Virus record (IMG/VR): IMGVR_UViG_3300050343_000122
Location: 32,001-96,000 of that record
DNA length: 64,000 nucleotides
DNA from: a virus
Direction: 5' to 3' (one strand)
Of the stretch, positions 3,001 through 20,000 are shown in pieces. Both the position numbers and the translations under genes were made by a program. The first letter of the stretch is position 1, and each line of letters begins with the position of its first letter. The notes beneath the pieces were generated by a model. That model ran no database searches. It was not told where the DNA came from and worked only from the letters and a program-made list of their open reading frames with translations.

Positions 3001-3259
3001 CATCAGGAAAACTTAAACAAGGCTCATTACCAGGTTCATTTTGATAGTTGACTGAACTAGAATCAAAGTTCTCTATAGTAGCATTCAATGCATAGGTAAG
3101 ACTTCCTGTCTTTACTTGATTGATGGTGCTATCCATGTTAAGACCAGTAGTAGCTTGATTATATTCAAGTCTAACTTGGCCTTTCTGAGCTTTGTCATCT
3201 TTTTTAGCAGCAGCAGCTTTTTTAGCTTTTGCGTCTTCCATTTCTTTTCTAGTAGCCAT
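2..3259 (-). CDS. Tail muzzle / tail stabilization protein (crAss-like Tstab), 3' end truncated by window edge
   Basis: Not in ORF track because it has no stop in the window. Manual translation from ATG 3259 (MATRKEMEDAK...GLNMD...YALNA..ENFD...NEPGNE) matches the frame at position 2. Follows ring and IHF-like genes as in crAss synteny. Confidence 0.75.
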   Translation of the reverse strand, partial: MATRKEMEDAKAKKAAAAKKDDKAQKGQVRLEYNQATTGLNMDSTINQVKTGSLTYALNATIENFDSSSVNYQNEPGNEPCLSFPDGYELIGKYTIPEKKKNIFFLTDPLTGDSEIGFMFNNDCQYQTLVNAPCLNFSIDYPIHKVVHRITNCSTEIYWTDGFNARRYLDIDNIPYVIDPNSDPGCDPVYTDQLDCNQLKIQPNFDIPFLEINDILNVGSLVAGTYQFAVQYSDAAGSDLTSYYSVTNPTPIADPLNTTVNFNYPVGKSIELRVSNLDLSGQYNYFNLAVIKTINDITSVELVGTYNITEDQQIITYTGADANPIQLSIADIFEKYPYYDVAKDITSAQDTLIWSDLASVDRINYQNIASQITLQWETHRLPPGEDYSDELNATNYRGYMRDEVYAFEIVFLLRNGKQTDSFHIPGPLNLNPQPDVPNTNDDFIGEPDYFESGIGYSPYWKIYNNATNLGFSPEYNGEANYKGPFEYGNFAYWESTEKYPCNTELWGSLADTPIRHHKFPDVLVSPIVENPQIVYEGTSIVPTMQDSDAIYPIGVKINNTQITGLITASNLTQEQKDDIVAFKIVRGDRGTNKSVIAKGILRNLNKYTKDDQEYYYPNYPYNQVSGEDSFLQENNNAWNYKSKSWLLYMPDKATDFFLGPWYTAYGIDITVNDEDGVFVYTSIENGKQTQATISPNCILEVCSLTRPVSLKGVITIGPGDFDVWIGDHSSNCQIFPVPFSDKGPCSRYELKWQNPFNNFNFDGTVNCSATLRWGGDIIDGIDRVNVITNADPEFDVYGTNQIDFDESPGGAPAGASYGYEGNHPYAPTWREPSGSCCSNPRIFLTQIYPGPCTEPDPDNPEENYDIISYPPNTFDPNYPCPDPDQESKACQTCVKVEENPDNVQPWPSPGFGQPTNPLPLFDDSVASSAAYSGPGFPTPVNAWDTFTPAENANDTGSGGQNNEFSKRHSRRSCLKCDRDIPIKPLDGADYEEAKDILDKQIFNSPDTSFGQPFLGSVLKLESVMFGAGKAHFVEVKDNAKYKLLSKEAQEDALKSSERVASMGSGVFNAGIMFTVYQSYLTIYING

Positions 3260-3269
3260 ATGCTATTTG

Positions 3270-4286
3270 TTAACTCCTACCGTTACCTCTCCACAAACCA
3301 TATCCATATCTGTTTGAATATCTTCCTGACACTTGAGATTTTGCATCAGGTAATTCATACATATTATTACGATTGAGATCAGTAATAACTCTTCTTTGTT
3401 TTTGATATACTGTTTCTTTCTTAAGTTCTGTTTCTGCCATAATCCAAGACTCATCAGACATTTGTTTATAATAAACTAGTTTTTGTTGTAGCTGATTAAA
3501 TGTTTCATCATTTGTCTGATTTGTTAGAGTTTCAAATACCTTAAACTTAATAAACGATTCTATATATTCTCTTACACGATAATTATCTGGAATCAATTGA
3601 TTTCCTATCTTGTCATAGTCTGTAGAATAGAATACTAAATGAACTACTCCTTTTCTAAAGTTAGTAACAAACTTATTGTCTCTTACATCAAAAGAATCGT
3701 AAGAAGAAGATCCTGGAGTGAACTCACGTCCTGATAAAGCTAACTGATTGTATTGGTCCCAAGAATCTGTATATGCTAAATTACAGCTCTTTCTAGCTGA
3801 GATGTTACCTGGTTTAAGTAGGTATGTTCTTCTATATGCTCTAGGTATTTCACTGTTTGTTTTATATACAGCTTGTACTATCTCAGGCATACATGTCCCA
3901 TCGCAACTAGGATGTTGACAATCAGGATTATTACAGGGAGTACCACCAATAGTTAAAGGAGCAATTTGAATAGTTGTAGCATTTGCAGCCTGACTATAAA
4001 AAGAAGATGCTGCAGGATAAGGGTTTCCTGGAATAACTGCACACATCCAAGCTTCTCTCACAGCATGAAAGTTGTCTGGTAACCTTGCTTCAAAGTCTTC
4101 TATAAATAGAGCCTCTGTAGTAATCTTATATGTTGTTCTTCCCATTTTCCTAAGACACTTATCTAAGTATGTAGGAAATAGTAAATCATCTACAGCACCA
4201 GTATCGAAGTAACTTTTAAGCTCTTCTTTTACTGTAGCGTATAGTGGTTCTGGGGATACAAAATCGTATTTATAATAGTATGACAT
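3270..4286 (-). CDS. Tail ring / tail tubular protein (crAss-like Ttub)
   Basis: 338 aa directly upstream of the muzzle gene. C-terminal G..LIPD...EYIE.FIK pattern is typical of crAss ring proteins. Confidence 0.6.
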   Translation of the reverse strand: MSYYYKYDFVSPEPLYATVKEELKSYFDTGAVDDLLFPTYLDKCLRKMGRTTYKITTEALFIEDFEARLPDNFHAVREAWMCAVIPGNPYPAASSFYSQAANATTIQIAPLTIGGTPCNNPDCQHPSCDGTCMPEIVQAVYKTNSEIPRAYRRTYLLKPGNISARKSCNLAYTDSWDQYNQLALSGREFTPGSSSYDSFDVRDNKFVTNFRKGVVHLVFYSTDYDKIGNQLIPDNYRVREYIESFIKFKVFETLTNQTNDETFNQLQQKLVYYKQMSDESWIMAETELKKETVYQKQRRVITDLNRNNMYELPDAKSQVSGRYSNRYGYGLWRGNGRS

Positions 4287-4779: not shown

Positions 4780-5508
4780 TTACTGAGTTGGTTGGGCATT
4801 TGGAGCTTGTCCATCTATGCCTTCGTTACTCATGTCGGTTTTAATTTGGAAGTATGTAGCTAAGAGTTTTTGTGATACTAATCCTAAAGCTGAAGACTCT
4901 AAATAACCTGGTAGAGCATACTCTTTATCCAAAGGGTTTTTACAATATTCTTCATCTGTAACATCCACACCACCACAATCACAATCTGGATACATAATTT
5001 CACTAGGTACATCTTCTTCAAAAAATGCAGATAGTCTGATTGCTTTTAGTAAAGGATTGTTTACATATAAGTATCCATTAGATATCCAGAAGTAATAATC
5101 ATTTTTTACTATTGGTAGTTTCAATAAATTCAAATATCTATTTATAGTTATCTCCTTTAATTTAGTTCCTCTTCCTCCCATAGCATCTACAGAATATACA
5201 CCCTGTATTACATATTGGTAGTTACCTTCCGATATTCTAGGTAGTTTATGTGCAGTTCTGGATACATTACACTCGTCTGCATACTCACAACATTCTGAGA
5301 TGGGAACTTCTTTCATCTCTAGACAAGGAATAGTGGTATATAATGTATCACTAGCCCATAGTTTTCTTAAATTGGTTTCTCTTTTTATCAACATTTGAGA
5401 TGTGTTTCTTATCTCAGAAGCAATAACTCTATCCGTTATCAAAGCATCTGTTGATAAAATCTTATGTGTACCTCTCACATCCGAAACCAATTTTCTTAAT
5501 GTTGCCAT
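4780..5508 (-). CDS. Tail ring protein
   Basis: 242 aa with YFWISNGYLYV...FEED and CKNPLD.EY.LP patterns; synteny with crAss ring/IHF/ring/muzzle block. Confidence 0.55.
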   Translation of the reverse strand: MATLRKLVSDVRGTHKILSTDALITDRVIASEIRNTSQMLIKRETNLRKLWASDTLYTTIPCLEMKEVPISECCEYADECNVSRTAHKLPRISEGNYQYVIQGVYSVDAMGGRGTKLKEITINRYLNLLKLPIVKNDYYFWISNGYLYVNNPLLKAIRLSAFFEEDVPSEIMYPDCDCGGVDVTDEEYCKNPLDKEYALPGYLESSALGLVSQKLLATYFQIKTDMSNEGIDGQAPNAQPTQ

Positions 5509-6897: not shown

Positions 6898-6925
6898 ATG
6901 TATCGTATTTAATTAGAAAATATCT

Positions 6926-6933
6926 CAAAGATA
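6926..6933 (-). promoter_or_regulatory. Bacteroidota sigma-A -7 element (TATCTTTG) upstream of the phosphoesterase
   Basis: Matches TAnnTTTG about 30 nt upstream of ATG, just downstream of a terminator. Confidence 0.65.
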
Positions 6934-7005
6934 GATAAATTATTTAACTTAACATAAAAAACTTAACCATGAGAGTTATTCTTTATAACTAATTTGGTTA
7001 TATAT

Positions 7006-7037
7006 AAAACTCCCTAGGGGCGTTTTGCCCCTGGGAG
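7006..7037 (-). terminator. Intrinsic terminator
   Basis: CTCCCAGGGGC-AAAAC-GCCCCTAGGGAG followed by TTTT on minus strand. Confidence 0.7.
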
Positions 7038-7073
7038 AAGTTCTCTAAAACCAACAAAAGAGAACTTTTTATT

Positions 7074-7739
7074 CTATCTCACATCACTTCCACAACATTC
7101 GTCATAGATCCATGAAAACTCAAAGTCATCTCCAGACGATCCTACCCACTGAAGATCTTCAATAAAACATGGGTTTACTAATGTATTCCCTGATATCTCG
7201 TAGTTGCGTATTGATAATGTACCTTGATTACCGTTTCCATTATTTTGTGTGTTTATCATTTGTACAGTGTTTCTTAGAGTTATTATATCTGGATCAAAAA
7301 AGAACAACTGCATGTTGCTCAAGGGACAAAGAAAGTCTGGTTCAGTTATCACTAACGGTGTATTGCTAGCAACAAATATCGATCCCACTTGAGCATTTTG
7401 ATTTAGATCTAAATTCCCTATTAAGCTCCCATTTAGAAATACATCAAAATTGTCATCTCTTTCTGAGTTCTCATTACAAACCTGAAAGACAGTGACAGTA
7501 TTTGGACAATTTGGAGGTGCGTCTATTTCTCTATCTAGATAAGTATCACAGTCAGGACTAGTAGATATAATTCTAACTACAGCAGTTCCAAAAGGAACGT
7601 TATATGAAACAAATCCTGCAAGTAGTTGATTGCTTGTTACATCTACTTCAAAAGCTTCAGTAAAACCATCAACCTGAGAAAACAAGTTAAAAGGTCCAGC
7701 ATCTGCTCCTATGTTACTAGCTTGTATTAGTATTGCCAT
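7074..7739 (-). CDS. Putative virion decoration protein: shared N-terminal GPFxLxS module + C-terminal beta domain
   Basis: N-terminus ...GADAGPFNLFSQVDGFTEAFE...VRI..C is paralogous to four neighbours. Confidence 0.55.
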   Translation of the reverse strand: MAILIQASNIGADAGPFNLFSQVDGFTEAFEVDVTSNQLLAGFVSYNVPFGTAVVRIISTSPDCDTYLDREIDAPPNCPNTVTVFQVCNENSERDDNFDVFLNGSLIGNLDLNQNAQVGSIFVASNTPLVITEPDFLCPLSNMQLFFFDPDIITLRNTVQMINTQNNGNGNQGTLSIRNYEISGNTLVNPCFIEDLQWVGSSGDDFEFSWIYDECCGSDVR

Positions 7740-7753
7740 TTTATATTTTTATT

Positions 7754-8293
7754 TTATTGACAAAGAGTAGTACAACATAAAACTTCATATCCATTTAAAG
7801 CTATCTGTATTGCTGCTACACTTGTGTCAGTTGCACTCGGTCCTATTTTATACCATCCTGCATCCAATTCTAATAGACTTGCTGTTGCTGGGTTTGGATC
7901 ATCATATAAAAAAGACCCAACAGATGGAACATAATTAAAAGTATCACCATTGTGCCAGTACTCAGTTACCGGTAATATAGATGCATCTGAACATGCATCT
8001 GTAGCATTATTGTGAGGTGCTGGAGCATCAAAAAGTCCAAATCCAGATGTATATTGTGAGACAATTGATGCGTCAACATAATTATCACAGTCAGCATTGT
8101 TATTTTTTATTCTCACAATGGTAGTTCCACTAGGAACAAGACTTGTAGATATGTTATAACCTAGTGCACTTGTTAGAATAGTTATAGAAACGTTCGTAGC
8201 AAAGGGTGTTGTATAAAGATCTGCATTTGAATATAGATCAACTGGTCCTGAGCAACTGCCTGCGGATTCTAGTTTTATTGTTAGTGTTGCCAT
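7754..8293 (-). CDS. Putative virion decoration protein: shared N-terminal module + Cys-flanked C-terminal domain
   Basis: GPVDLYSNAD.YTTPF...VRI..C. C-terminal domain resembles that of 8308-9450. Confidence 0.55.
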   Translation of the reverse strand: MATLTIKLESAGSCSGPVDLYSNADLYTTPFATNVSITILTSALGYNISTSLVPSGTTIVRIKNNNADCDNYVDASIVSQYTSGFGLFDAPAPHNNATDACSDASILPVTEYWHNGDTFNYVPSVGSFLYDDPNPATASLLELDAGWYKIGPSATDTSVAAIQIALNGYEVLCCTTLCQ

Positions 8294-8307
8294 TTTATAA
8301 TTTTATT

Positions 8308-9450
8308 TTATGGATCTGGACAATCCTCAATGTTAGTAATACGTCCATTTGTATCAATTTTTATAAGCCAAGTTCCTGGATCAGCTGTAGATATAGACAT
8401 TTGAAACTTGTACCATTTGTTGTCTCCGTTAAATGTTTGAAGTGCTGGAAATATTACATCATATGTAAAATCATTTATTTGTGGTTCAGCAAGTGATCCA
8501 TTTTTCCATAGGAATGCAGCAAGGTCAGCATTACATAAACCAATATTTAGATTTGAACTACTAGTTATTGATCTTATACCAGCTGCAAGAGATGCACTAG
8601 GTGTTGTACTAGTAGTTGTCGTAATTGGAGTTTTAGTTGTTGTAGTACCAGTAAGTGTTACGGTAGGATTATTTAAGGAACAATCACATGTAGTAGTAGT
8701 TGTTGTTGTTGAAGAAGAGCTGGTACTAGTTGTAGTGCTAGTAGAACTAGTAGAACTAGTAGTTGTTGTTGTAACTTCTTTATAAGTATCAGCTATAAAG
8801 GAGAAGTCTACATCAACTCCTGCTCCAGTATAATTAGGACTTAGGGCACTTACAAAACTATCAGTACAGAAAGTACACACATCCTGTCCTTGATATAGTA
8901 TTCCGTCTTTTTGAATTGTATTGATAAAATTGTAAACTCCGACTCTGTTACTATCTATTGTAGCAGAAACTACATCTCCTGGTAAGATTTGAATAGTTCC
9001 ACTTTGTGAAGATGCATTACCTGTAATAGTTGCATCTACAACATTAGTTCCATTAACATCTATTTTTAAGTTACTGCTCTGTGGATCTGCCGCAATTAGA
9101 GAACTTGGAGTGTTTGTTATCAACTCCCAATTAAATCTATTAGGTGGTTGATCTGTTGTAGTGGTTGATGTTGATGTTGAAGTACTTGTAGTAGTTGATG
9201 TACTAGAACTACTTGTTGTAGTTGTTGTAGGACAATTAGTTGGTAGGTCAATACAATTATCACATGTACCAACAGAGCAGACTCTTATAATAGTTGCTCC
9301 TGTAGGAAGTTCAATAACATATCCATTAGTTAAAGTTAAAGCAGGAACTTGTGTTTGAAATGGATTAGTATATCCATCTGCATCTGAGTATAAATCAAAA
9401 GGTCCAGCAGAGCCTCCTGGGGGTATGGTTATGTTTATTTGTATCAACAT
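8308..9450 (-). CDS. Putative virion decoration protein: shared module, Thr/Ser linkers, Ig-like domain, C-terminal domain
   Basis: GPFDLYSDADGYTNPF; three Thr/Ser-rich tracts. Confidence 0.55.
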   Translation of the reverse strand: MLIQINITIPPGGSAGPFDLYSDADGYTNPFQTQVPALTLTNGYVIELPTGATIIRVCSVGTCDNCIDLPTNCPTTTTTSSSSTSTTTSTSTSTSTTTTDQPPNRFNWELITNTPSSLIAADPQSSNLKIDVNGTNVVDATITGNASSQSGTIQILPGDVVSATIDSNRVGVYNFINTIQKDGILYQGQDVCTFCTDSFVSALSPNYTGAGVDVDFSFIADTYKEVTTTTTSSTSSTSTTTSTSSSSTTTTTTTCDCSLNNPTVTLTGTTTTKTPITTTTSTTPSASLAAGIRSITSSSNLNIGLCNADLAAFLWKNGSLAEPQINDFTYDVIFPALQTFNGDNKWYKFQMSISTADPGTWLIKIDTNGRITNIEDCPDP

Positions 9451-9453
9451 ATC

Positions 9454-9705
9454 TTATGGTGTTGGTGTTGTTGTGGTAGTTGTAGTTTGTTCTAATACAA
9501 TATCAAAACTATTTTCACATAATGAATCTGACGTTACTCTTATTATAGTAGTAAAATCAGGAACTACAGTACTAGTATAGCCAGCTAATAAATTAACTTT
9601 AGTTACACCAGTTTCAAAAGCAGCAGTGAACCCATCTACATCTGAGAACAGATCGAAGGGTCCAGTATTGTTTCCTGCAGTTGTTAGTTTAATAAATGCT
9701 TCCAT
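9454..9705 (-). CDS. Stand-alone shared module with poly-Thr tail
   Basis: MEAFIKLTTAGNNTGPFDLFSDVDGF...TTTTTTTPTP; start moved to 9705. Confidence 0.6.
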   Translation of the reverse strand: MEAFIKLTTAGNNTGPFDLFSDVDGFTAAFETGVTKVNLLAGYTSTVVPDFTTIIRVTSDSLCENSFDIVLEQTTTTTTTPTP

Positions 9706-10016
9706 TATGATCCGCAACAAGTATTTAGTGTGTTATTTATATTTATAACTTGCTCTTTTATAGCAGAAATATCTGATGTATTAGTTGCTTGTTGAGTCTT
9801 CAATATACAAAGAAGTTCGTCAATTTTAGACAAAGCAACGTTTAAATCATCACAAGGTTCTACATTAGAACAAGGTAATATTGGTCCATTGTATGTAATA
9901 GATTTTGAATAATGTATTCCAGTTTGACATGGATCATTACTTACAGAAGTAGAACAACCACAAGTAGTGTTCACTGCTATATTTGTACAACAAGGATTAG
10001 TGGGTAAGTATGCCAT
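9705..10016 (-). CDS. Cys-rich small structural protein with coiled coil
   Basis: ITYNGPILPC motif resembles the VKYTG.D.P motif of the upstream gene; heptad-like C-terminus. Confidence 0.5.
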   Translation of the reverse strand: MAYLPTNPCCTNIAVNTTCGCSTSVSNDPCQTGIHYSKSITYNGPILPCSNVEPCDDLNVALSKIDELLCILKTQQATNTSDISAIKEQVININNTLNTCCGS

Positions 10017-10027
10017 TGTTTTTAGTA

Positions 10028-11164
10028 TTAAGGTATGTAAATTATATAATATGATCCAATTCCAGGTTGATAATTATTATGTGGTAATCCTCCACCAGTA
10101 GAATTTATTGTAACAGTTGTAGCTACACTTTGACTAACCTCAGTAGTTTTTCCTACAGTAGCTGTATTACTTGCTCCTCTAAGTGCATATCCTAAGTTAC
10201 CACCTGTGCTTTTTGACTGGCGAATATAGTTATTGCTTGTAGGAGGATTTGTTTCATTTGAACTTCCCATAGTTGCAACAAGGTGGGTGTGAGAAGCTGG
10301 ACTAAGTGAAGCTACTACAGTATTAGTGTGTGTATGTGAAGGTATTTGTGCTGTTGTTAATACAACTTGATTTGTTCCAGTAAGGTCATTTACGTTATAT
10401 GTAGGATTTCCACTAACAGACGGATCAACTATTTTATCCATAGTTTGACCTGGCATATCAGTAGCTCCAACAGCTACTCTTCCTCTCATATCTGGTGTAC
10501 CATTGTTTCCATTACATAGAAATATTCTATCCCAAATACCTATTCCTGCACCTGATGCATCAAATGGTGTTAAGTCTCCAAAGTATGGCTGTGCAGAAAA
10601 TGGAACCATTCGATTACTAATAAGCTGTTGCTGAGGATTAGTGTTTAAATAGTTTTCTATATACGTATTAATATCAACAATTCGTACGTAGTTGTTTGTA
10701 ACATCAGTAATAAAAGTGTTCAGTGACTGCTCAACTTCACACAACTTATTTATAGTTTGTTGTAATACATCTGATGTACTTGTAGTATCTGTTACTCCAG
10801 ATACACAGCCTACATCATAGTTTACATCTGATCCTGAACCACCTTCTATCTCACTTACTTCTTCCTGTAATTTACAGATAGTTTTGATTATACCTACTAG
10901 GTAGTTATTTAAAGTTAATGGATTACAGTCATCTAGATTAGCCTGCACTGCAGGGCATATATCTGATGGGGGAACCACAGGTGTTATACCTGTTCCGTCT
11001 AGTGTAGATCCTAAAAAGGTAATAAGAGCTTGCTCCACAAATGATAGGGAGTCTCCATTCTTTATTCCTAGTATAGGAACGTCTACACCTGTATATTTAA
11101 CGCACTTGTCTGAAGTAATTTCAGTACATCCGTTATAACAATTTGAGCAATTTTGTGTTGACAT
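10028..11164 (-). CDS. Fibre protein with phage tail-collar-like domain
   Basis: LCNGNNGTPDMRGR, LTTAQIPSHTH, TGGGLPHNNYQP..YIIY motifs; Cys-rich N-terminus. Confidence 0.7.
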   Translation of the reverse strand: MSTQNCSNCYNGCTEITSDKCVKYTGVDVPILGIKNGDSLSFVEQALITFLGSTLDGTGITPVVPPSDICPAVQANLDDCNPLTLNNYLVGIIKTICKLQEEVSEIEGGSGSDVNYDVGCVSGVTDTTSTSDVLQQTINKLCEVEQSLNTFITDVTNNYVRIVDINTYIENYLNTNPQQQLISNRMVPFSAQPYFGDLTPFDASGAGIGIWDRIFLCNGNNGTPDMRGRVAVGATDMPGQTMDKIVDPSVSGNPTYNVNDLTGTNQVVLTTAQIPSHTHTNTVVASLSPASHTHLVATMGSSNETNPPTSNNYIRQSKSTGGNLGYALRGASNTATVGKTTEVSQSVATTVTINSTGGGLPHNNYQPGIGSYYIIYIP

Positions 11165-11188
11165 AATTTTATTTATTTGTTTATCACA

Positions 11189-14100
11189 CTATGGTGATGT
11201 TTGTGTTACGCTTAGAGAAATAGCACCTGTTCCTGTTACAAAAAAGTTTCCAGCTACTGGACCTATTAATGTTTCAGCAGCTCCAGTATCGGTATCAGTA
11301 AAACTAGTAAATCCACTAACTTGAAGACCACTTGCTGTTAAAGTGCAGTTTTGTCCTGGGTTACTTGATTTATAAGTTGCTTGTAGATCATAATTCTTTC
11401 CGTTTACTAAAGTAAAGTTGTAAGTTCCATTACTGTTTGGATCAGCAGGATAACTCTCTGAAACATTACCGTCTTCACCATCAAAAGATACAAACTGAAC
11501 TCCGTCTCCAGGATCTTCAAAGTCTATTATAAGGCTTGCAGGTGCAGTTGCAGTAGTAATAGTATCATAAAGCCAAACACTATTACTTACACCTGTTTGA
11601 GTCCAGTTGGGAAAGACAAATGTATAGTCACTAGATGCAGATACAAGACTTGTATCGAATTGCGTTGGTTGAACACTAGTGGTTAGTTTGTGTTCAACAA
11701 AAGTAGTATCGCTTGATAAATTTTCAGTTGTCATTGATGCACTAATAACGTCACCTACTGCTGTCATTATAACACCACCGTCTGATGAATTAGTTGTGTT
11801 TATATTAGAATTTACAACTGTTGTACCATTAATTACTATCTTAAGATTCGCACTCCTAAATAGACTTGATCCACTTGGGTTAGAGTCTCCAGTAAACACC
11901 CAATTCCATGCATACGATTTAGGATCAGGAGTTGTACTTGTAGTAGTTGTACTACTTGTACTTGTTGTTGTAGAAGTACTTGTAGAAGTACTTGTGGACG
12001 TACTAGTAGTACTTGTACTTGTGGATGTACTTGTACTTGTGCTTGTGCTAGTAGAACTACTTGTAGTAGTGGTAGTAGGCACAGGAGTAGTAGTTGTTGT
12101 TGTTGTAGGTATAGGTGTGGTAGTACTAGTAGTTGTACTAGAAGTGCTAGTAGAACTACTTGTAGTAGTAGTGGTTGATCCACAATCTCCATATGCAGTA
12201 ACTTTATAACCATCTCCAGTTGTATGATCAAAGGTAGAAAGTATTGATGATAAGTCATTACCATTTGCATCTATCTTTGAAAATTGGAATGCACTTGTAC
12301 CTGATAACGGACCTGAAGCAGCGTTAGTGCTAACTTTACCATAAGGAACAGTAACTGCTCCAACTCCAACATCAAGAAGTTGATACACTGCTGTATAGTC
12401 TACTCCTCCTATATTAAATACTACATCATAGTTGGTATTTGGAACTTGAGACCAGTTGGTATAACTTGTTGTGTTTGTAGTTGGTCCAACGAAAGATGAT
12501 CGAACATATAGAGAGGGGGTATTCACACCTACAGGACTTGGTGGGTCTGTATACCAGAAGTTATTATCTGTAGTAGTTAAATAGTCAAACTCTAGACATC
12601 CAACTAGTGGTGTAATAGTTGTTGTTGTAGTTGTAGTACTAGAAGTGCTCGTAGAAGTGCTAGTGGACGTGCTAGTAGATGTACTAGTTGAACTACTTGT
12701 TGTAGTAGTAGTTGGTACAGGGGTAGTAGTACTAGTAGTTGTACTAGAAGTACTTGTACTGGTACTGGTACTGGTACTTGTACTAGACGAACTTGTTGTA
12801 GTTGTTGTTAGCTGATCATCTGGACATAAATAAAAATCAAGAAGGCAACCTGCTAACTTATCTCCTACATGTGTAAATATTAGTTCATTAATTCTATCAC
12901 CATTGTTTCTAGGAAATATATTAAATAAAGCACGAGCTGGTTGATCTCCTGAATTCAACTTTGCTTTAAATATCACACTACCATCTGTCTCATTAGAAAC
13001 TATAAAACTATCAGGATTTTCTCTACATACCTGTATAAATGATATATTAAGATCTACGTCAGATGTTACTCTCACTGTTTCATATATTCCTGGATTAGGA
13101 TAATACCCTATACCAGTACAGTAAAATGCCATAGATGATATTGAGTTATCAAATGACATTGTAGATGAAGCACACTTTCCACCACCTAGAGCATATGTAC
13201 CCTGATTATTATATTGATTATTGTGGAAACCTTGTAGTTCACAATCTGGATCAGTTCCATTATTTGCAAGAAGTTGCGAAGAAGAACTTGGAACATATGT
13301 TGTCTCACAATCAGCGTTATCAGATGATAATGTCAGTACAAATCCATTACTTAATGTTTTAACTCCATTTCCAGTGCTTATTCCTGGGAATCCCTCTGGA
13401 GCATCAAAGTTATAAGGTTGGCTACAGTTACCTGAAATAGGAGCTGAACTAGTGGTGGTGGTGGTGGTTTCAGAACCACAGTTATTTTCTAAACTACCTG
13501 TAAATCCTACTTGCCAGTACGCTTCACTTTCACAATATATTATTTTCTGGTCACTTTGTCCATCTATAGTTATATACTCAATTGTATCTGGATCTACTAG
13601 TGGACCAGGAGTAACAAACTGCTGTATACCCATTTGTTCTGCAACCATATCTATTCTACAGGCATAACCATATAGATAACAACCAGCTGCCACCTGAGCT
13701 CCACCAGCATAACATAGTCCTATTATCTTGATAGTTCCCTCTATATCTGCGAGGAGGAGTGATCCTGAATCTCCTGAATATATAGGATTACAACAATATT
13801 CTGTTGTACTCGCATTATCAGGATCTTCTTGAGGAGGTTTAATAAATCTAATAGCATCAGTAAACTTACAATTTACACTAGTTGCTTGTGAACTAGGATA
13901 AGCTATATTTTCAAGCGTAGCATTTATTGATTGAATTAACATAGGACAATCTGGTACAATACCTTTAGGTCCAGTAGTTCTTCCAGTACTATATACACGA
14001 GGGTTTGTAGCTAATATATTATCTATTTCTAATGTAGAAGCAAACGGTGGTGGATTACTACCTAGTATAGACTCTAGTCCTACTTGATTCCATGCAATTG

Positions 14101-14779
14101 TTGGATCCCATCTTGTCGGATCAATGGAAATTATAGCTGCATCTACCTGATTAAATAAACCTGTAGACTTTGCATGAATAGGAACATACTGTAAACTTAC
14201 ACCACAGTTATAACTTGCAGGTGTGGATGCACTTCCAAATTCTCCTTGTTGGTATACATAATCTACTGGACTATATTCATTTACAAGAGCTCCAGTAACA
14301 CTTCTATCAGATGTATAAAATGCATCTTGAATAGTAACGTGATTATTTGTTAAACCAACTGAACAGCCTGTTTCTGAATGTATAACTACACCTCCAAGAG
14401 TACCTACACTAGTTCCATTATTTCTACTAGAAAAAGAAATACCACCTTGTAAATGTTGAAAGAACTGTCTGTTTGCTAGTGAAGTGTTATTTGTTTGTCC
14501 ACAAGTTGAAGAACACGTACCTATAATTTCATGCTTCGCTATTTCTATTACATCTGTTTTTATACTTTTTCCAGATACTATAACACGTGATGGAATATGT
14601 TCATTTATTGAAATCTCAGAAAGAGGCTTCTTTTTTTCTACAGCTATAACTATAGCAAAGTCACCTGTCCACGTTCCATTAACAACTTTTCTTCCCCAAG
14701 CAACACTAGTTACATTAGGAAGTTGCTGAGACAACTCTAATATTCTATCTTTTATTTCTTGTGTTAATAGTCCTTTCAT
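11189..14779 (-). CDS. Trypsin-like (PA clan, Nal1-like) serine protease fused via Thr/Ser linkers to several beta-rich domains
   Basis: GTLGG, LTNNHV (His), QVDAA (Asp), GRTTG, GDSGS (Ser); long poly-Thr/Ser tracts. Confidence 0.75.
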   Translation of the reverse strand: MKGLLTQEIKDRILELSQQLPNVTSVAWGRKVVNGTWTGDFAIVIAVEKKKPLSEISINEHIPSRVIVSGKSIKTDVIEIAKHEIIGTCSSTCGQTNNTSLANRQFFQHLQGGISFSSRNNGTSVGTLGGVVIHSETGCSVGLTNNHVTIQDAFYTSDRSVTGALVNEYSPVDYVYQQGEFGSASTPASYNCGVSLQYVPIHAKSTGLFNQVDAAIISIDPTRWDPTIAWNQVGLESILGSNPPPFASTLEIDNILATNPRVYSTGRTTGPKGIVPDCPMLIQSINATLENIAYPSSQATSVNCKFTDAIRFIKPPQEDPDNASTTEYCCNPIYSGDSGSLLLADIEGTIKIIGLCYAGGAQVAAGCYLYGYACRIDMVAEQMGIQQFVTPGPLVDPDTIEYITIDGQSDQKIIYCESEAYWQVGFTGSLENNCGSETTTTTTSSAPISGNCSQPYNFDAPEGFPGISTGNGVKTLSNGFVLTLSSDNADCETTYVPSSSSQLLANNGTDPDCELQGFHNNQYNNQGTYALGGGKCASSTMSFDNSISSMAFYCTGIGYYPNPGIYETVRVTSDVDLNISFIQVCRENPDSFIVSNETDGSVIFKAKLNSGDQPARALFNIFPRNNGDRINELIFTHVGDKLAGCLLDFYLCPDDQLTTTTTSSSSTSTSTSTSTSTSSTTTSTTTPVPTTTTTSSSTSTSTSTSTSTSTSTSSTTTTTTTITPLVGCLEFDYLTTTDNNFWYTDPPSPVGVNTPSLYVRSSFVGPTTNTTSYTNWSQVPNTNYDVVFNIGGVDYTAVYQLLDVGVGAVTVPYGKVSTNAASGPLSGTSAFQFSKIDANGNDLSSILSTFDHTTGDGYKVTAYGDCGSTTTTTSSSTSTSSTTTSTTTPIPTTTTTTTPVPTTTTTSSSTSTSTSTSTSTSTSTTSTSTSTSTSTSTTTSTSSTTTTSTTPDPKSYAWNWVFTGDSNPSGSSLFRSANLKIVINGTTVVNSNINTTNSSDGGVIMTAVGDVISASMTTENLSSDTTFVEHKLTTSVQPTQFDTSLVSASSDYTFVFPNWTQTGVSNSVWLYDTITTATAPASLIIDFEDPGDGVQFVSFDGEDGNVSESYPADPNSNGTYNFTLVNGKNYDLQATYKSSNPGQNCTLTASGLQVSGFTSFTDTDTGAAETLIGPVAGNFFVTGTGAISLSVTQTSP

Positions 14780-14788
14780 ATCTATGTG

Positions 14789-17551
14789 TTATGCTGGTTC
14801 TGACCCTGCACTGAATTTGGTAAATATTGTTCTTACACCAGGTATAGGTGTAGTAGTGGTAGTTGTTGTTGTTATATCAGGATCTGTTGTAGTAGTGGTA
14901 GTTGTACCAAGTACTGCAAATCCATCATTTGTTCTACATAATGGTAAACTTCCTGAACTTCCACCAAAGTATTCATCTTCGTTTGCTACTTCTTCCCAAA
15001 CATGTGTTTGTAGATTAACTCTATATAATCTAAATCCTCCTGTAGTAATACCTAAAGTTACATATAAATAATCATCAACTACAGCCATATCTCCACCACT
15101 GTTCCAATTACCAACTGGTCCTGGAATCTCTACTTCTAGATTACCTGTGTCATAATCAAACTGAGCAAGTACATATGGTTGAGTTCCATAATTAGATTTG
15201 ACTGCTATAAATTTATTTGGTGTTCCATCTTCTTTAAGGGTAACCACATGTTCACCAGAACCATTAAATGGTTCAGGTATAAAGAATTTAAGTGCAACTG
15301 CTAATGTTGTAGATCCATCTACAAATTCAGCTTCAATCACTTGTTGACCTCCTCCAGCAAAGGAAGAGATACCATACGATAGTACCATTAAGTTGTCATT
15401 AACCGTACTTACTCCAAAAAAAGTAGGAGGAAATATATTAGGTAACCCACTTTGATCTATAGTATAAAGTATACCCTCCCATGTAAAGTTTGAAGGTGTA
15501 CCACTTGGTAATGTGGTATCATAACTCCATCTTGTAAATTGTGTAATTCTATCTCCTTCTGCATTTTTATTGTTAACTTGACCAATAAAATAATTATTAG
15601 TAATATCTGAATTAGGTAGTTGGAAATAGCTACCTCCTGGAAGAGCAATTTCCTCTATAGTATTTGTTACAGTATTTTGTGAATAAACTCTACTATAGGT
15701 TCCATTCAAATTATCAGGAGCACATATTCCATCACTACATCTATATGCAACGTTACGAGTAAATATTCTTGAACAACTTAAAGGAGGGGTGACACAACCA
15801 AGCAGAATTGGTCCCCCAGTTGGTGCATTACCGGATATAGTTATAACAGTAAAGTTGGTAGGAGTTGTTACAATAAACTCTCCATCACCTTCTGTATTGT
15901 AATCTGGCACACCTCCACCTATTCTATTTCCTTGTACTTGTACATTACATCCATTACTTATTGATATAGAAGGTGTTCCTGTATTTGTAGTAATTTCATA
16001 AACGTCCCCAGCACTAAAGTCAGGAGAAGTGTTAAGTACAGCAGCTCTAATAGGAAGATTATTAATAGGACTTTCAAAAGTTAGAGTAATACTAAAATCA
16101 TTACCTTGAACAGTTGTTAACTTATTAGTTGCAGCTGGATTAGATAATCCACTACATCCGCTATTAGGTATACCTCCAACTGGATTTCCTGGTAGTAATG
16201 CTAAGAAGTTATCGTCAGCACTAGCTGTAACCTGAATTCCCTGATATGTAAAAGTAACAGGCCCAATATAGAAGAGGTTATTTTCAGCATCTCGTTCAGT
16301 TAGTGCAGGTATCCAAGTAGCCTCACAATCAGGATCTGTTAATTTAATACCAACATTTGCACAACCAGTTGATGTATGTATCCAAACACTATCGTCAGCC
16401 ACTGTAGTTTCTAATGTAGCATTATATGGTGCTGTTTGACTTATGTTATATACTTCAAGTGTTTCTGGTTGAATTACTTGTATTAATCCATTTACACCCC
16501 ATACAGGCATAGCTTTAGTTGAACCAGTCCATGTAGATGTAAATTCAGGAACACCAGAATTCTGTAAGTTGATTATAGGAGTGTTAGGATTTGGTGACCA
16601 ACTACCAGATGAAGGTAAGCCTGGATATTGTTTAATTCGATTTGAGGCATTGAAATCACTTTGGTCTTCATAATATCTACTAGAAAGAATAACATCACCA
16701 TCATTAGTAATAAACATACCTGTAAGCTCTGTTGTGTGTCCAAAGGTATTACCAAAGCTAACAGTGACTTGATCACTATTATTAAATTCAGTTAATTCAA
16801 TATCTCCAACTGTAGAAATGTCCCATTCGTAAACACCCATAGCAACATTTCCATTAAATCTATCGCTAAACCCTACAAGTAATGTTTTATTATCAGAGGT
16901 TGTAGCTATTGTAGATATTTTAGTTCCCCATATACTTTTGTAATTAAGTGAACTTACAGCAATCGTTATTTCTCTAACATAAGATAAAGTTGGTGCAGAA
17001 CCAGATAGAACTATGTCCCACTCTCTAATGTATGCCACTGTATTATCAGTTGTAACACTAGCCAACCATAACTTATCTTCTGTAGAGCAGATAGGTCTGT
17101 TGATTCCTACAGTAGTTGTAAAGTCATTAGGTACAAGCACAGGACTTGAAGAATTAGTATTAAAGTCATATACAGCTATTTCTCCAGGGTTACCTCCATA
17201 AGTTGACCATGTACATGGTGAGAATGCTGGATAATTAGTACTTGTTGTAGTACTTGTTGATGATGACGTGGTTGTTGTTGTTGTAACATCACAAAGAATA
17301 GATCCAGAAAAATCACAGTTTGGTGTAGCACAAGAATAAATATCTGTTGTATTAGGTGTACACAATGCACCCAAGTCCAACAGTCTAACAGTTATAGTTC
17401 CATCAGGGGCTAATGATGTTTCATACCCAGACAATAGATCCGCTTTACTCACACCTGTCTCAAATGGAGTAATAAACCCATCTACGTTCGAGTATAGATC
17501 AAAAGGACCTGTGTCTGCACCTGCAAAACTTAATGTTATTATTATTGTCAT
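14789..17551 (-). CDS. Large putative virion decoration / receptor-binding protein: shared N-terminal module, Thr linkers, beta-rich (propeller-like) domains
   Basis: GADTGPFDLYSNVDGFITPFETGV N-terminus; Thr tracts near both ends. Confidence 0.5.
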   Translation of the reverse strand: MTIIITLSFAGADTGPFDLYSNVDGFITPFETGVSKADLLSGYETSLAPDGTITVRLLDLGALCTPNTTDIYSCATPNCDFSGSILCDVTTTTTTSSSTSTTTSTNYPAFSPCTWSTYGGNPGEIAVYDFNTNSSSPVLVPNDFTTTVGINRPICSTEDKLWLASVTTDNTVAYIREWDIVLSGSAPTLSYVREITIAVSSLNYKSIWGTKISTIATTSDNKTLLVGFSDRFNGNVAMGVYEWDISTVGDIELTEFNNSDQVTVSFGNTFGHTTELTGMFITNDGDVILSSRYYEDQSDFNASNRIKQYPGLPSSGSWSPNPNTPIINLQNSGVPEFTSTWTGSTKAMPVWGVNGLIQVIQPETLEVYNISQTAPYNATLETTVADDSVWIHTSTGCANVGIKLTDPDCEATWIPALTERDAENNLFYIGPVTFTYQGIQVTASADDNFLALLPGNPVGGIPNSGCSGLSNPAATNKLTTVQGNDFSITLTFESPINNLPIRAAVLNTSPDFSAGDVYEITTNTGTPSISISNGCNVQVQGNRIGGGVPDYNTEGDGEFIVTTPTNFTVITISGNAPTGGPILLGCVTPPLSCSRIFTRNVAYRCSDGICAPDNLNGTYSRVYSQNTVTNTIEEIALPGGSYFQLPNSDITNNYFIGQVNNKNAEGDRITQFTRWSYDTTLPSGTPSNFTWEGILYTIDQSGLPNIFPPTFFGVSTVNDNLMVLSYGISSFAGGGQQVIEAEFVDGSTTLAVALKFFIPEPFNGSGEHVVTLKEDGTPNKFIAVKSNYGTQPYVLAQFDYDTGNLEVEIPGPVGNWNSGGDMAVVDDYLYVTLGITTGGFRLYRVNLQTHVWEEVANEDEYFGGSSGSLPLCRTNDGFAVLGTTTTTTTDPDITTTTTTTTPIPGVRTIFTKFSAGSEPA

Positions 17552-17575: not shown

Positions 17576-19315
17576 CTAAACTCCATATCCAAAGCTTATT
17601 AATGTATTTCTTATTTCATCATACCAGTACTGCTCTGGGTTAGCAGGATTATTATCTAGATCCGCTGACCATGCAAATCTTGCAGGACTTGCACTTGGGT
17701 AGTTTACTAGATTATCTGTAGAACTGTTGTAAGCACTAGCAGGAGCATTACCAATACTTGCAACTACAGCTACACCATTATTTCCTGCATTAAGAAGTCC
17801 TTCAGGTGAAACTAGAGGTTTTATTGTTGAGAATGTGTACTGACTTGTAGCTGCTGGATGGAAAAACTTAGCTCTATATACATTAGTGTTACCTTTTGCA
17901 TTTTCTACATTCGTAACAAAAGTTCTTACACTTGCTATATCATCTACTATTCTTGAATTTGTTTGACTCGCTCGAGTTGACCAGGAGGTCCTGAACTTGG
18001 GTAATTACCATCCATATTATATCCTATACCTGACTCATCACCAAATGCCATAATTACTAAACTATCTGCATCAGGAAAATATCCTGTTGGGTCTATAGTG
18101 TCCCCAAGACCTTTGTTTGAGAGCATTTGAATTTGTCTCTCTTGACCACTATGACACCAGTATACACGAGTTTCAAACTCATCACTACCATTGGTAGCTC
18201 TGTCTGTATTTCCACTTGCTTCAGTTCCACCTGTTGCATAAAAATCTTGAAGTAAGTTTCTTAAATTAGATGTGTTTTGGTAATCAGCAGTTTTCTGAGC
18301 ATCTGTTAGATTAAACGTGACAACACCATTAGCTCCCTGGATTAATATCTGCTGTTAATGCAACAGGGTCTCCATTACTGTCTACAAGATTAAATGTTAG
18401 AGCATTTGATCCTACAGTAATAAAAGTTCCTGCAGGTATTGAAGGATGTATAGCTTCCATGCCAGGTACCACACATAAATACGCCCCACCTGTAGTGTTT
18501 CCACTAGGTTGTTGCACGGTAACTTTATTAGCCTGATTACCATATGACAGTTGGATTTGTGTTGATCCTGCTGGTGCAGTTCCACCAACTAGAACTTTTA
18601 CACCTGTAACACTAGCTATTTTTGCTGTCACTGCAATTGTGCTATTCATAGAACCTGAAACATCACTCCAGAAAGTAAAGTATGAGTTTCCTGTGACTGG
18701 TATTAGACTACTAGTAGTTGTAGTGGTAACAGGATCAGTAGTGGTAGTTGTTGTTGTGCTTGATGTACTTGTACTAGTTGTACTTGTACTAGTTGTACTT
18801 GTACTTGTGCTAGTTGTACTTGTACTAGTACTAGTAGAACTAGTTGTGGTAGTAGTTGGTGTTGTAAAACATCCTTCCACTCTACAGTCTGGATAGATTG
18901 TACTAGTTGTAGTAGTAGTTGATGATGTACTAGTTGTAGTAGTACTAGAGGTACTAGTTGTTGTTGTTGTTGGATTAGGACAAGGTTTGATTGCACATGT
19001 AGTTATTTCACATACAGTTGGTTCGTTACAGAATGGTACACAACCAGCTGTAAGACGTATTACCTTACTTGCAATGTCTTCTGTAGATACACTGTTGCAA
19101 CCTTTTGCATAATGACTGTCACAAAATCTATGTTGTAATATACGTTTATAGACTAACAGTTCTGAAATCTCACTAACAGCTATGGGTCTGTTTAACATAA
19201 ATACAACATTGTTGTATAAGTTATTCCCTAGCTCTGCAAGTTTACAGTCTATTTTTCGTAATAGATCAGGAATGTTTGCACACTCCTTACAATTCGTTAG
19301 TCTTGGTGAGATCAT
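17576..19315 (-). pseudogene. Probable single ~579-aa gene (tail-hub-like N-terminus, Thr linker, vWA-like domain) broken by two compensating frameshifts
   Basis: ORF track stops at 18329. Coding continues in a shifted frame from ~18335 (GVVTFNLTDAQK...LVIMAFGDE) and returns to the original frame at ~17990 (WSTRASQTNSRIVDD...SFGYGV*), with TAG at 17576. Confidence 0.6.
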
Positions 19316-19433: not shown

Positions 19434-20000
19434 TTAAATAAAGTTTATTTGGTAGTTGTTTCCAGTACAACCACAATTTGATTTTATAAATGTATCAAGC
19501 ATATTACTAGCTTGATTGTATAGTTTTAAAGCTTCTTTCTCAGCACAGTTATTAGCAGCAGCTAATGACCCTTGAATAAAGAAGTTAATTGTATTTAAAG
19601 TAACGTTAGACTGTGTTCTCAGAGCACTGTCACACTCCATCATATTTAACTTTAAAAACGCATCGTCAAACTTTTGTTGAAGTTTATCAATACGCATTAT
19701 AGTCTTTTCTACATAATTCTTGTAGGCAGGTGCCACAGAGTATTTCAGATAGTATATACCATCTGGAATAGGTTGTTTGCATCCAGCTTCAGTAATTCCT
19801 AAAGTATCTGACGCAAAAATATTTGTTTCTAAGGGTTTGAAAGGTAAGACTTTTGTTCCAAATCCAGGTATCTCTATTTCAATCGTAGGTGATGAGACCA
19901 ACGGTGGATCATCTGGATACACTGATGCATCAGTAACTGCTAGTAAATTAACACTATAACTAGGAGGAACAATAATATCTAACTGTAAAATAGCTGACAT
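19434..20000 (-). CDS. Structural protein, probable tail hub
   Basis: 188 aa, beta N-terminal and helical C-terminal halves with CGC end; follows gene 73 as hub genes do in crAss synteny. Confidence 0.45.
   Translation of the reverse strand: MSAILQLDIIVPPSYSVNLLAVTDASVYPDDPPLVSSPTIEIEIPGFGTKVLPFKPLETNIFASDTLGITEAGCKQPIPDGIYYLKYSVAPAYKNYVEKTIMRIDKLQQKFDDAFLKLNMMECDSALRTQSNVTLNTINFFIQGSLAAANNCAEKEALKLYNQASNMLDTFIKSNCGCTGNNYQINFI

What the first reader, a model, noticed from the sequence alone, without database searches (positions are those of the whole stretch)
7074..17551. Five virion-module proteins share one ~70-aa N-terminal module carrying different cargo (plug-and-play decoration system)
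Seen: genes starting at 17551, 9705, 9450, 8293 and 7739 begin with the same motif, I.L..aG...GPF(D/N)L(Y/F)S..DG(F/Y)...F...V....L..G(Y/F).....P.....(V/I)R......C. One gene is the bare module plus a Thr tail. The others carry cargo of about 100 to 850 aa, sometimes after Thr/Ser linkers. They lie between the capsid and tail genes. Inference: the module docks onto a repeated virion site (hub, fibre or capsid vertex), so one particle displays a set of interchangeable adhesin or enzyme domains, much like dockerin-linker-cargo in cellulosomes. I do not recognise this module as a named family.
Basis: partly seen in the sequence, partly recalled or inferred. Interest (0 to 1): 0.85.

Follow-up and report, generated by a model that had tools for sequence, protein, structure and literature searches.

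The report
Shared anchor domain on crassvirus appendages
A marine crAss-like phage has six proteins that start with the same small, unnamed beta-sandwich domain and then carry unrelated end domains on threonine-rich linkers; the domain is most likely a common attachment piece for swapping surface-binding parts, a known phage strategy built here on a new domain family.

Summary
Five minus-strand genes in the window start with one ~70-aa module (pairwise BLASTP E 2e-7 to 2e-16). A sixth, divergent copy lies just outside the window in a conserved 288-aa protein (MOD288).

The genome is a complete 113.5-kb crassvirus; Pfam finds Crass_capsid, crAss_MUZ and Ring 1/2. The module matches nothing in Pfam, PHROGs, NCBIfam or PDB sequences. 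It is still a large family: 1,718 representative clusters, all sampled members from metagenomes.

In 564 proteins the module is always at the extreme N-terminus and never repeated. It is modelled as an FN3/Ig-like sandwich (pLDDT 83). A Thr/Ser/Pro linker follows in 234 of 260 members, then hypervariable cargo (65 unlinked types among 256).

The module has exactly one Cys in 253 of 260 members, while cargo Cys counts are even (54 of 65 clusters, p=6e-8). That points to an intermolecular disulfide.

All 10 large related records searched whole have one ~288-302-aa MOD288-type member plus 1-5 variable members, at two fixed hot spots in the tail-appendage region.

The plug-and-play architecture is supported. 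Docking itself, its site and virion presence are not shown. No multimer prediction tool was available. I rate it a new variant of a known principle, with moderate interest.

The parts
14789..17551 (-). MOD920: module (residues 1-~70, window 17342-17551), a Thr/Ser linker, ~800-aa cargo of unknown fold, and a Thr-rich C-terminal tail
   Evidence: ORF; module alignment; HMM hit E 2.3e-36; cargo has only a weak sub-threshold Kelch_6 hit; nothing in PDB sequences or the ESM Atlas
9454..9705 (-). MOD83: bare module plus a Thr/Pro tail (83 aa); its only Cys is the invariant module Cys
   Evidence: AF2 model pLDDT 83.4 with seven strands and one short helix
8308..9450 (-). MOD380: module, Thr/Ser linker, a domain shared with the 1196-aa protease protein, a second Thr/Ser linker, and a C-terminal domain
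   Evidence: residues 124-170 match residues 975-1021 of the 1196-aa protein, E 5e-5; the C-terminal domain matches cargo of family member P0061
7754..8293 (-). MOD179: module plus ~100-aa cargo; this slot holds a bare 76-85-aa module in many close relatives
7074..7739 (-). MOD221: module plus ~145-aa Cys-containing cargo; orthologs of 220-227 aa occur throughout the close clade
9705..10016 (-). p103: Cys-rich small protein; relatives keep its N-terminus but have total lengths of 83-2061 aa, so it looks like a second anchor-plus-variable-end family
10028..11164 (-). fib378: conserved tail-fibre protein found in nearly all related loci
   Evidence: phrog_8763 tail protein E 1.2e-20 and phrog_8469 tail fiber protein E 5e-17; weak sub-threshold Gp10_C hit; synteny
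11189..14779 (-). prot1196: N-terminal protease-like region (GDSGS motif read from the sequence), long Thr/Ser linkers, and a cargo-type domain shared with MOD380; it has no module
   Evidence: phrog_20754 protease E 8.5e-12; sequence; shared domain
17576..19315 (-). p328: conserved Cys-rich ~88-aa N-terminus plus Thr linkers and a variable C-terminus (88-948 aa in relatives). Here the gene is split by two compensating frameshifts near 18340 and 17986. Possible THB-like hub protein, by gene order only
   Evidence: no PDB sequence match
19434..20000 (-). p188: conserved virion structural protein with 4-5 conserved Cys; possible THA-like hub protein, by gene order only
   Evidence: phrog_31752 virion structural protein E 6.4e-9; conserved Cys; no PDB or Pfam match
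4780..5508 (-). Crassvirus tail ring protein 2
   Evidence: Pfam CrAss_Ring_2 E 3.4e-20
3270..4286 (-). Crassvirus tail ring protein 1
   Evidence: Pfam CrAss_Ring_1 E 6.9e-8, 32.6 bits against a 27-bit cut-off
2..3259 (-). N-terminal 1086 aa of the 2261-aa muzzle protein, which runs off the window start. Its C-terminal extension carries Thr linkers and cargo-type domains. The sixth module gene (MOD288, genome 27605-28471) follows it immediately, outside the window
   Evidence: Pfam crAss_MUZ E 3.6e-31; cargo-type domains at residues 1800-1909 and 2206-2259

Best explanation
The ~70-aa module is a previously unnamed FN3/Ig-like beta-sandwich. I read it as the common virion-attachment (anchor) domain of a family of appendage proteins in an aquatic, largely marine clade of crassviruses. 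Each protein would be anchor, then a flexible and probably extended Thr/Ser/Pro linker, then a small and mostly disulfide-bonded distal domain. The distal domains look like adhesin or receptor-binding parts and are exchanged freely in evolution. The module's single, nearly invariant, otherwise unpaired cysteine most likely locks the anchor to its partner, or to a second module, through an intermolecular disulfide; disulfides stabilise the fibre-docking hubs of PhiCrAss001 in the same way. The favoured partner is in the tail-appendage assembly, either the hub/fibre proteins encoded next to the genes or the conserved MOD288 paralog. A capsid hexon pocket, as used by the PhiCrAss001 head fibres, is the alternative site. 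Shown here: the family, its architecture, its position, its copy-number pattern, the cargo turnover and the Cys parity. Inferred: docking, the disulfide, the site, and presence in the virion.
For: (1) The genome is a complete 113.5-kb crassvirus with a 461-bp direct terminal repeat: Crass_capsid, crAss_MUZ and Ring 1/2. (2) The module is a large family of 1,718 representative clusters at E<=1e-3 and 1,260 at E<=1e-10, with no Pfam, PHROG, NCBIfam or PDB sequence match. (3) In 564 proteins the module never starts after residue 35 and is never duplicated. (4) A T/S/P run follows in 234 of 260 members. All 33,670 module pairs are detectable (median 69% identity), while 256 cargos fall into 65 unlinked clusters, 54 of them singletons. 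(5) The module has exactly one Cys in 253 of 260 members. Whole-protein Cys counts are odd in 204 of 260, and cargo Cys counts are even in 54 of 65 clusters, p=6e-8. The 83-aa bare protein has that Cys and no other. (6) The genes sit in one strand-consistent structural operon at two fixed hot spots: after the fibre/p103 genes, or between the muzzle gene and MOD288. (7) All 10 large related records searched whole have one conserved ~288-302-aa MOD288-type member plus 1-5 variable ones. (8) One array slot alternates between a bare module and module plus cargo among close relatives. (9) Cargo types recur on other exposed carriers in this genome, including the muzzle C-terminal extension and the 2625-aa giant; one distant member carries an SprB adhesin repeat. 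(10) Precedent: PhiCrAss001 head fibres gp21 and gp29 and tail fibre gp22 dock through short N-terminal segments, and its hubs are disulfide-locked (PMC10172136).
Confidence: 0.55

Rival explanations
1. Homotypic pairing. The modules do not dock onto a different protein. They pair with each other, and the conserved MOD288 is the virion-embedded base: its C-terminal domain would sit in the tail next to the muzzle, and its own N-terminal module would recruit the variable members by module-module association sealed by a Cys-Cys disulfide. This is a specific sub-model of docking.
For: All 10 large related records searched whole have one ~288-302-aa MOD288-type member plus at least one variable member. 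In many genomes the only variable gene lies directly beside MOD288. The MOD288 module is modelled with the same strand order at pLDDT ~90, and it keeps the module Cys: C60 is 93% conserved among 14 orthologs from the loci and nearly invariant (>=90%) in the 70-sequence alignment; model. The MOD288 C-terminal domain is highly conserved but is not modelled as a monomer (pLDDT 30-40), which is common for parts that fold only within an assembly.
Against: In about half of the loci the variable gene is at the other hot spot, ~10 kb from MOD288. The MOD288 module is the most divergent copy, 29% identical to the first copy. No oligomer prediction was possible. MOD288 could instead be an internal or cargo-associated protein, since it lies next to the cargo genes.
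Confidence: 0.2
2. Generic Ig/FN3-like domain. The module would be a spacer or weak glycan or mucus adhesin, like Ig-like domains on many phage structural proteins, and not the attachment piece. Attachment would come from another part of each protein.
Against: The module is always at residue 1 and never tandem or internal in 564 proteins. Bare-module proteins of 71-97 aa have nothing else to attach with. The cargos are unrelated to each other, so no other common attachment element exists. The lone unpaired Cys is unusual for a free-standing Ig-like adhesin domain.
Confidence: 0.12
3. Not a surface display system. The module would be a targeting or assembly signal for proteins packaged inside the particle or acting in the infected cell, for example a capsid-targeting domain that may be removed by the phage-encoded protease.
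For: Crassviruses package many cargo proteins (PMC10172136). MOD288 lies next to the cargo genes. A protease-like gene sits in the same cluster in this clade.
Against: Thr/Ser/Pro linkers and even-numbered, presumably disulfide-bonded Cys in small domains are features of exposed extracellular proteins. The same cargo types sit on the distal extension of the muzzle protein. PhiCrAss001 cargo proteins are predicted to be alpha-helical, unlike these. The protease gene is absent from most relatives that have the module.
Confidence: 0.08
4. The module mimics the C-terminal sorting domain of type 9 secretion substrates of the Bacteroidota host, and binds T9SS components such as PorV or SprA as part of adsorption.
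Against: These scores tie with dozens of unrelated FN3 domains. Pfam Por_Secre_tail finds nothing in the whole genome even at E<=10. The module is N-terminal, not C-terminal. The module starts at Met1 with no signal-peptide-like segment before it (read from the sequence).
Confidence: 0.03

Closest known systems
PhiCrAss001 head fibres gp21 and gp29 and tail fibre gp22 (Bayfield et al. 2023, PMC10172136)
   Same: Same virus order. These are small proteins whose short N-terminal part docks into a repeated virion site: residues 1-38, 1-58 and 1-26, into hexon pockets or the THA2-THB hub. The C-terminal part is a small exposed domain, Ig-like in gp29. The hub assembly is disulfide-stabilised. The paper says most crassvirus groups lack gp21 and gp29 homologs and that uncharacterised proteins might fill the role.
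Conserved N-terminal anchor with exchangeable C-terminal receptor-binding domain in podovirus fibres and tailspikes (T7 gp17, P22 gp9, K1-5/G7C/CBA120-type branched systems, Klebsiella 'anchor-branch' depolymerases); from general knowledge, not tested here
   Same: The evolutionary logic matches: a conserved N-terminal particle-binding part with horizontally exchanged distal parts, and several receptor-binding proteins per virion.
   Different: Those anchors are parts of trimeric fibres or spikes and belong to other families. Here the anchor is modelled as a small monomer-like beta-sandwich with a lone Cys, the connection is an unstructured Thr-rich linker, the cargos are mostly ~100-aa Cys-paired domains rather than trimeric beta-helices, and bare anchors occur.
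Cohesin-dockerin (cellulosome)
   Same: Functional analogy only: one small docking module on many different cargos, joined by Thr/Pro-rich linkers.
   Different: A dockerin is a ~70-aa Ca-binding helical duplicated-loop module, usually C-terminal. This module is modelled as a beta-sandwich at the N-terminus. No cohesin-like partner has been identified.
Ig-like decoration proteins such as T4 Hoc (general knowledge)
   Same: An exposed Ig/FN3-type fold on a phage; a possible role in weak adhesion to glycans.
   Different: In Hoc the Ig-like domains are the displayed part and a separate domain binds the capsid. Here the Ig-like module is the constant part and the displayed part varies.
T9SS C-terminal sorting domain (Por_Secre_tail)
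   Same: Similar size and beta-sandwich fold, and the T9SS belongs to Bacteroidota, the presumed host phylum of this phage (the host was not determined here).
   Different: No sequence similarity, the opposite terminus, and no signal peptide.

Membership tests
Crassvirales virion gene set | Crassvirus major capsid protein | tested here: met
   Pfam Crass_capsid E 3.7e-31, 108.5 bits against a 27-bit cut-off, window 23185-24750
Crassvirales virion gene set | Muzzle protein and multiple paralogous tail ring proteins | tested here: met
   crAss_MUZ E 3.6e-31; CrAss_Ring_1 E 6.9e-8 and CrAss_Ring_2 E 3.4e-20, both above cut-off
Crassvirales virion gene set | Tail hub proteins THA and THB that dock the fibres | tested here: inconclusive
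   p188 and the p328 N-terminus occupy the syntenic position, but their profiles match no PDB chain and no Pfam family
PhiCrAss001 head fibre gp21/gp29 or tail fibre gp22 | Sequence or fold similarity of the N-terminal docking segment | tested here: inconclusive
   The module profile has no PDB sequence match at E<=10. No PhiCrAss001 chain is among the listed Foldseek or VIA-align matches. Absence from those lists does not exclude a relationship
FN3 / Ig-like beta-sandwich | Seven-stranded sandwich fold | tested here: inconclusive
T9SS C-terminal domain (Por_Secre_tail, PF18962) | Match to the family HMM | tested here: not met
   No match in the whole genome at E<=10
T9SS C-terminal domain (Por_Secre_tail, PF18962) | Located at the C-terminus of a protein that has an N-terminal signal peptide | tested here: not met
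   The module starts within the first 35 residues in all 564 proteins (residue 1-3 in 256 of 260 database members)
Dockerin | Duplicated Ca-binding loop-helix motif | tested here: not met
   The model is a beta-sandwich with a single 6-residue helix; no Pfam dockerin hit
Phage tail-fibre N-terminal anchor (T7 gp17 / P22 gp9 type) | Anchor followed by a trimeric shaft or beta-helix; binding to an adaptor or nozzle | not testable with these tools
   Oligomeric state and binding could not be predicted because no multimer tool was available. The module proteins have no PHROG tail-fibre hit

The most novel reading that the evidence does not exclude
The module is a universal, disulfide-locking docking domain. 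It would let one crassvirus particle display a mixed and quickly exchangeable set of small binding domains on mucin-like tethers. Bare modules would act as blanks that set display density, and the conserved MOD288 paralog, or the hub, would be the covalent receptor site. That would be a cellulosome-like combinatorial display system on a virion, built from a domain family with no named relatives.
Probability: 0.3. Interest if true: 0.75.

Novelty: new variant of a known kind. Interest (0 to 1): 0.55.

Why it matters
Crassviruses are among the most abundant phages, yet how most of them recognise hosts is unknown. The PhiCrAss001 atlas notes that most crassvirus groups lack homologs of its head fibres. 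This work defines a large unnamed domain family: 1,718 representative clusters, with the conserved MOD288 paralog in 2,362 clusters that include TARA Oceans data. It marks the variable, probably host-interacting proteins of an abundant marine crassvirus clade.

The family is a handle for annotating receptor-binding genes in viromes and for following cargo exchange. The lone-Cys signature gives a concrete, testable hypothesis of covalent attachment. The general principle of a conserved anchor with a swappable end is already familiar from other phages, which limits the surprise.

Tried and rejected
1. Pfam, PHROGs and NCBIfam on all module proteins and on typical family members gave no match for the module.

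2. PDB sequence searches found nothing relevant. The single proteins were MOD288, fib378, MOD920 and prot1196; the profiles were MOD288, p188, the p328 N-terminus and the module.

3. tblastn of the module and of a consensus-like member against 50,697 GenBank phage records found no match. The MCP finds only a 26%-identical cyanophage protein. Megablast of 19 kb of the window finds nothing.

4. A scan of bacterial and archaeal genomes with P0004 found no relative. The scan is pattern-based and reaches close relatives only.

5. The ESM Atlas returned only unnamed viral clusters for the module and no usable hit for the MOD920 cargo.

6. Fold searches of the module in PDB gave generic FN3/Ig matches. 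BFVD found the family itself in the uncultured Virus NIOZ-UU157, which has five module proteins. I found no paper that analyses them.

7. The AF2 model of MOD288 resolved only the module. The C-terminal domain has pLDDT 30-40, so it was not used for fold search.

8. The T9SS CTD lead was rejected on sequence and topology.

9. I tried to name the disulfide partner from conserved cysteines. MCP, p174, R1, R2, p188 and MOD288 all carry conserved Cys, so the test does not discriminate.

10. I tested whether the module is more conserved than the cargo within orthologs. This is not clearly so; the contrast appears only across non-orthologous members.


Full report
**1. What the window is**

The window is bases 32001-96000 of a 113,502-bp IMG/VR virus record with a 461-bp direct terminal repeat, rated 100% complete. 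It is a crassvirus. Pfam finds four hallmark families:
- Crass_capsid at window 23185-24750 (E 3.7e-31).
- crAss_MUZ on the N-terminus of a 2261-aa protein that runs off the window start (E 3.6e-31).
- CrAss_Ring_1 at 3270-4286 and CrAss_Ring_2 at 4780-5508.

PHROGs adds a terminase, a portal and a major head protein. The genome also has giant ORFs of 4176, 2625 and 1615 aa. GC content is ~35%. GenBank phage records hold no close relative.

**2.

The five minus-strand genes starting at 17551, 9705, 9450, 8293 and 7739 share their first ~70 residues. The alignment has 16 invariant columns and 38-48% identity to the first copy. All pairwise BLASTP E-values within this genome's ORF set lie between 2e-7 and 2e-16.

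The 83-aa gene is a bare module plus a Thr/Pro tail. A profile search of the whole genome finds a sixth, divergent copy (E 8.6e-5; 2e-14 with a deeper profile). It heads a 288-aa ORF, here called MOD288, at genome 27605-28471, directly after the muzzle gene and 3.5 kb outside the window. The genes are tightly packed on one strand, separated by 3-14 nt or overlapping.

**3. The module is an unnamed but very large family**

The module matches nothing in Pfam, PHROGs, NCBIfam or PDB sequences. A profile search of 1.84 billion representative proteins gives 1,718 hits at E<=1e-3 and 1,260 at E<=1e-10. In the 150 best hits listed, the match almost always covers residues 1-69 of proteins of 78-378 aa.

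All sampled members are metagenomic 'hypothetical proteins' with no precomputed Pfam domain. None is found in 50,697 GenBank phage records or in a pattern scan of bacterial genomes. BFVD contains the family in one uncultured genome, Virus NIOZ-UU157, with five module proteins. I found no paper that discusses them.

**4. Architecture rules**

Among 564 proteins with a near-complete module, none has the module starting after residue 35 and none has two copies. The set comprises database hits plus ORFs from ~130 related viral loci and includes duplicates.

Among 260 database members:
- 234 have a run of at least five Thr/Ser/Pro within 40 residues after the module.
- The median post-module length is 128 aa.
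- All 33,670 module pairs are detectable, with median identity 69%.
- The 256 cargos fall into 65 unlinked clusters, of which 54 are singletons.

Only 21 longer members (355-1371 aa) were found. One carries an SprB repeat above Pfam's cut-off, and the rest are unannotated. I detected no enzyme domain in any module-bearing protein.

**5. Fold**

With a 123-sequence alignment, AlphaFold2 models the 83-aa protein as a seven-stranded beta-sandwich with one short helix (mean pLDDT 83.4). The MOD288 module is modelled with the same strand order at pLDDT ~90.

**6. The lone cysteine**

The module contains exactly one Cys in 253 of 260 members, at the nearly invariant position in the S.G.C.NY.D motif. 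Whole-protein Cys counts are odd in 204 of 260. Counted by cargo cluster, cargo Cys numbers are even in 54 of 65 clusters (binomial p=6e-8). Among clusters that contain Cys, the count is even in 45 of 56 (p=5e-6).

So cargo cysteines appear paired and the module Cys is left over. In the bare 83-aa protein it is the only Cys. This is what an intermolecular disulfide would produce. PhiCrAss001 provides the precedent: its fibre-docking hubs, ring proteins and the gp57 dimer are cross-linked by disulfides (PMC10172136).

I could not name a partner. MCP has one conserved Cys, p174 one, R1 and R2 seven each, p188 four to five, and MOD288 has C60 and C229.

**7. Genomic context across relatives**

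Gene order is conserved in ~130 loci:

portal, p427, MCP, p322, p243, p379, p188, p328, fib378, p103, [variable module genes], exonuclease, Ring 2, p174, Ring 1, muzzle, [variable module genes], MOD288, cargo proteins.

- All 10 large related records searched whole (five of them 100% complete) have one conserved ~288-302-aa MOD288-type member plus 1-5 variable members.
- Most relatives have a single variable gene, either at hot spot A (after fibre/p103) or at hot spot B (between the muzzle gene and MOD288). In the loci that span both sites, only one is occupied.
- The clade of this window has expanded hot spot A to a four-gene array of roughly 85, 380, 80-or-180 and 221 aa, plus MOD920. Its third slot alternates between a bare module (76-85 aa) and a cargo-bearing form (179-193 aa).
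- Two neighbouring families follow the same logic. The p328 family has a conserved Cys-rich 88-aa N-terminus and total lengths of 88-948 aa. The p103 family has total lengths of 83-2061 aa.
- Cargo types of family members elsewhere recur in this genome on the C-terminal extension of the muzzle protein, on the 2625-aa giant and on a 147-aa ORF. A MOD380 domain recurs in the 1196-aa protease-like protein.

**8. Interpretation**

These rules fit an attachment (anchor) domain better than a displayed Ig-like adhesin:
- strictly N-terminal and single copy;
- a linker follows the module;
- the distal parts are unrelated and exchangeable;
- bare forms exist;
- there is one leftover Cys;
- the genes lie inside the appendage gene cluster;
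- an obligate conserved paralog is present.

In PhiCrAss001 the head fibres gp21 and gp29 and the tail fibre gp22 all attach through short N-terminal segments. The authors note that groups lacking gp21 and gp29 homologs may use uncharacterised proteins instead.

I therefore favour a common virion anchor, probably disulfide-locked, with the site unresolved. The tail hub or fibre assembly is favoured by gene position, MOD288 by universal co-occurrence and frequent adjacency, and a capsid hexon pocket by analogy with gp29.

Several things remain unshown: virion presence, the interface and the disulfide. Within orthologous slots the module is not clearly more conserved than its cargo. Paralogous modules within one genome are only ~38-50% identical.

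**9. Comparison and novelty**

The principle of a conserved N-terminal anchor with exchangeable receptor-binding ends, and several such proteins per virion, is well established for other podoviruses and myoviruses (general knowledge). New here are:
- the domain family itself;
- its Ig-like fold combined with a lone Cys;
- the unstructured Thr-rich tethers and mostly small Cys-paired cargos, instead of trimeric fibres;
- the bare anchors;
- the conserved 288-aa paralog.

I rate it a new variant of a known kind. Its docking claim is plausible but untested, and its cellulosome comparison is only an analogy.

Another first-stage note on this same stretch, e1-6009515 (the same region read in another window or again), reported six genes with this domain. 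I found the sixth copy independently before reading that note.

Noticed in passing
window 17576-19315 (-): The p328 gene is split. Residues 1-308 of the intact 559-aa ortholog (L004:496-2172) align to 19315-18332. Residues 304-423 align in another frame to 18345-17986. Residues 424-559 align back in the first frame to 17986-17579. This means two compensating frameshifts, which could be real or assembly errors.
   Followed up: yes
window 18329-19315 and 9705-10016 (-), plus loci L028, L091, L096 and others: Two more families have a conserved N-terminus and a variable C-terminus. The p328 family has a Cys-rich helical-looking 88-aa N-terminus and total lengths of 88-948 aa. The p103 family has total lengths of 83-2061 aa. 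The whole appendage cluster seems to be built from anchors with exchangeable ends.
   Followed up: partly
window 11189-14779 (-): A 1196-aa protein in the fibre cluster has an N-terminal protease-like region (phrog_20754; GDSGS motif), very long Thr/Ser linkers, and a domain shared with MOD380. Among the loci examined it is present only in this clade and a few other loci (L103, L127).
   Followed up: partly
L001:13605-14471 (-), genome 27605-28471, outside the window: MOD288 has a ~220-aa C-terminal domain that is strongly conserved, with dozens of invariant aromatic and polar residues, and it has 2,362 homolog clusters including TARA data. AlphaFold2 still gives pLDDT 30-40 for this domain, and no family or PDB match exists.
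   Followed up: partly
window 2-3259 (-) continuing into L001:14474-17998: The muzzle protein is 2261 aa, but only its first ~360 residues match Pfam crAss_MUZ. Its C-terminal third carries Thr linkers and small Cys-paired domains of the same types as module cargo. Muzzle lengths vary from ~1540 to 2261 aa among relatives.
   Followed up: partly
window 5656-6897 (-): A DNA repair exonuclease gene (phrog_704, E 2.5e-53) sits inside the structural operon, between the appendage genes and Ring 2. It keeps this position in nearly all relatives.
   Followed up: no
L001:10477-13605 and 6705-10472 (-), outside the window: The 1042-aa and 1255-aa proteins after MOD288 repeat short GGWLDK(F/Y)-like and Q(D/G)GG motifs along their length. 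They are presumably ejected cargo proteins.
   Followed up: no
window 31990-32343 (-) and 49360-51720 (+): There is an HU-like DNA-binding protein (Pfam Bac_DNA_binding, E 9e-6) next to the packaging genes, and an RIIA-like protein (phrog_612, E 4e-58) in the plus-strand replication arm.
   Followed up: no
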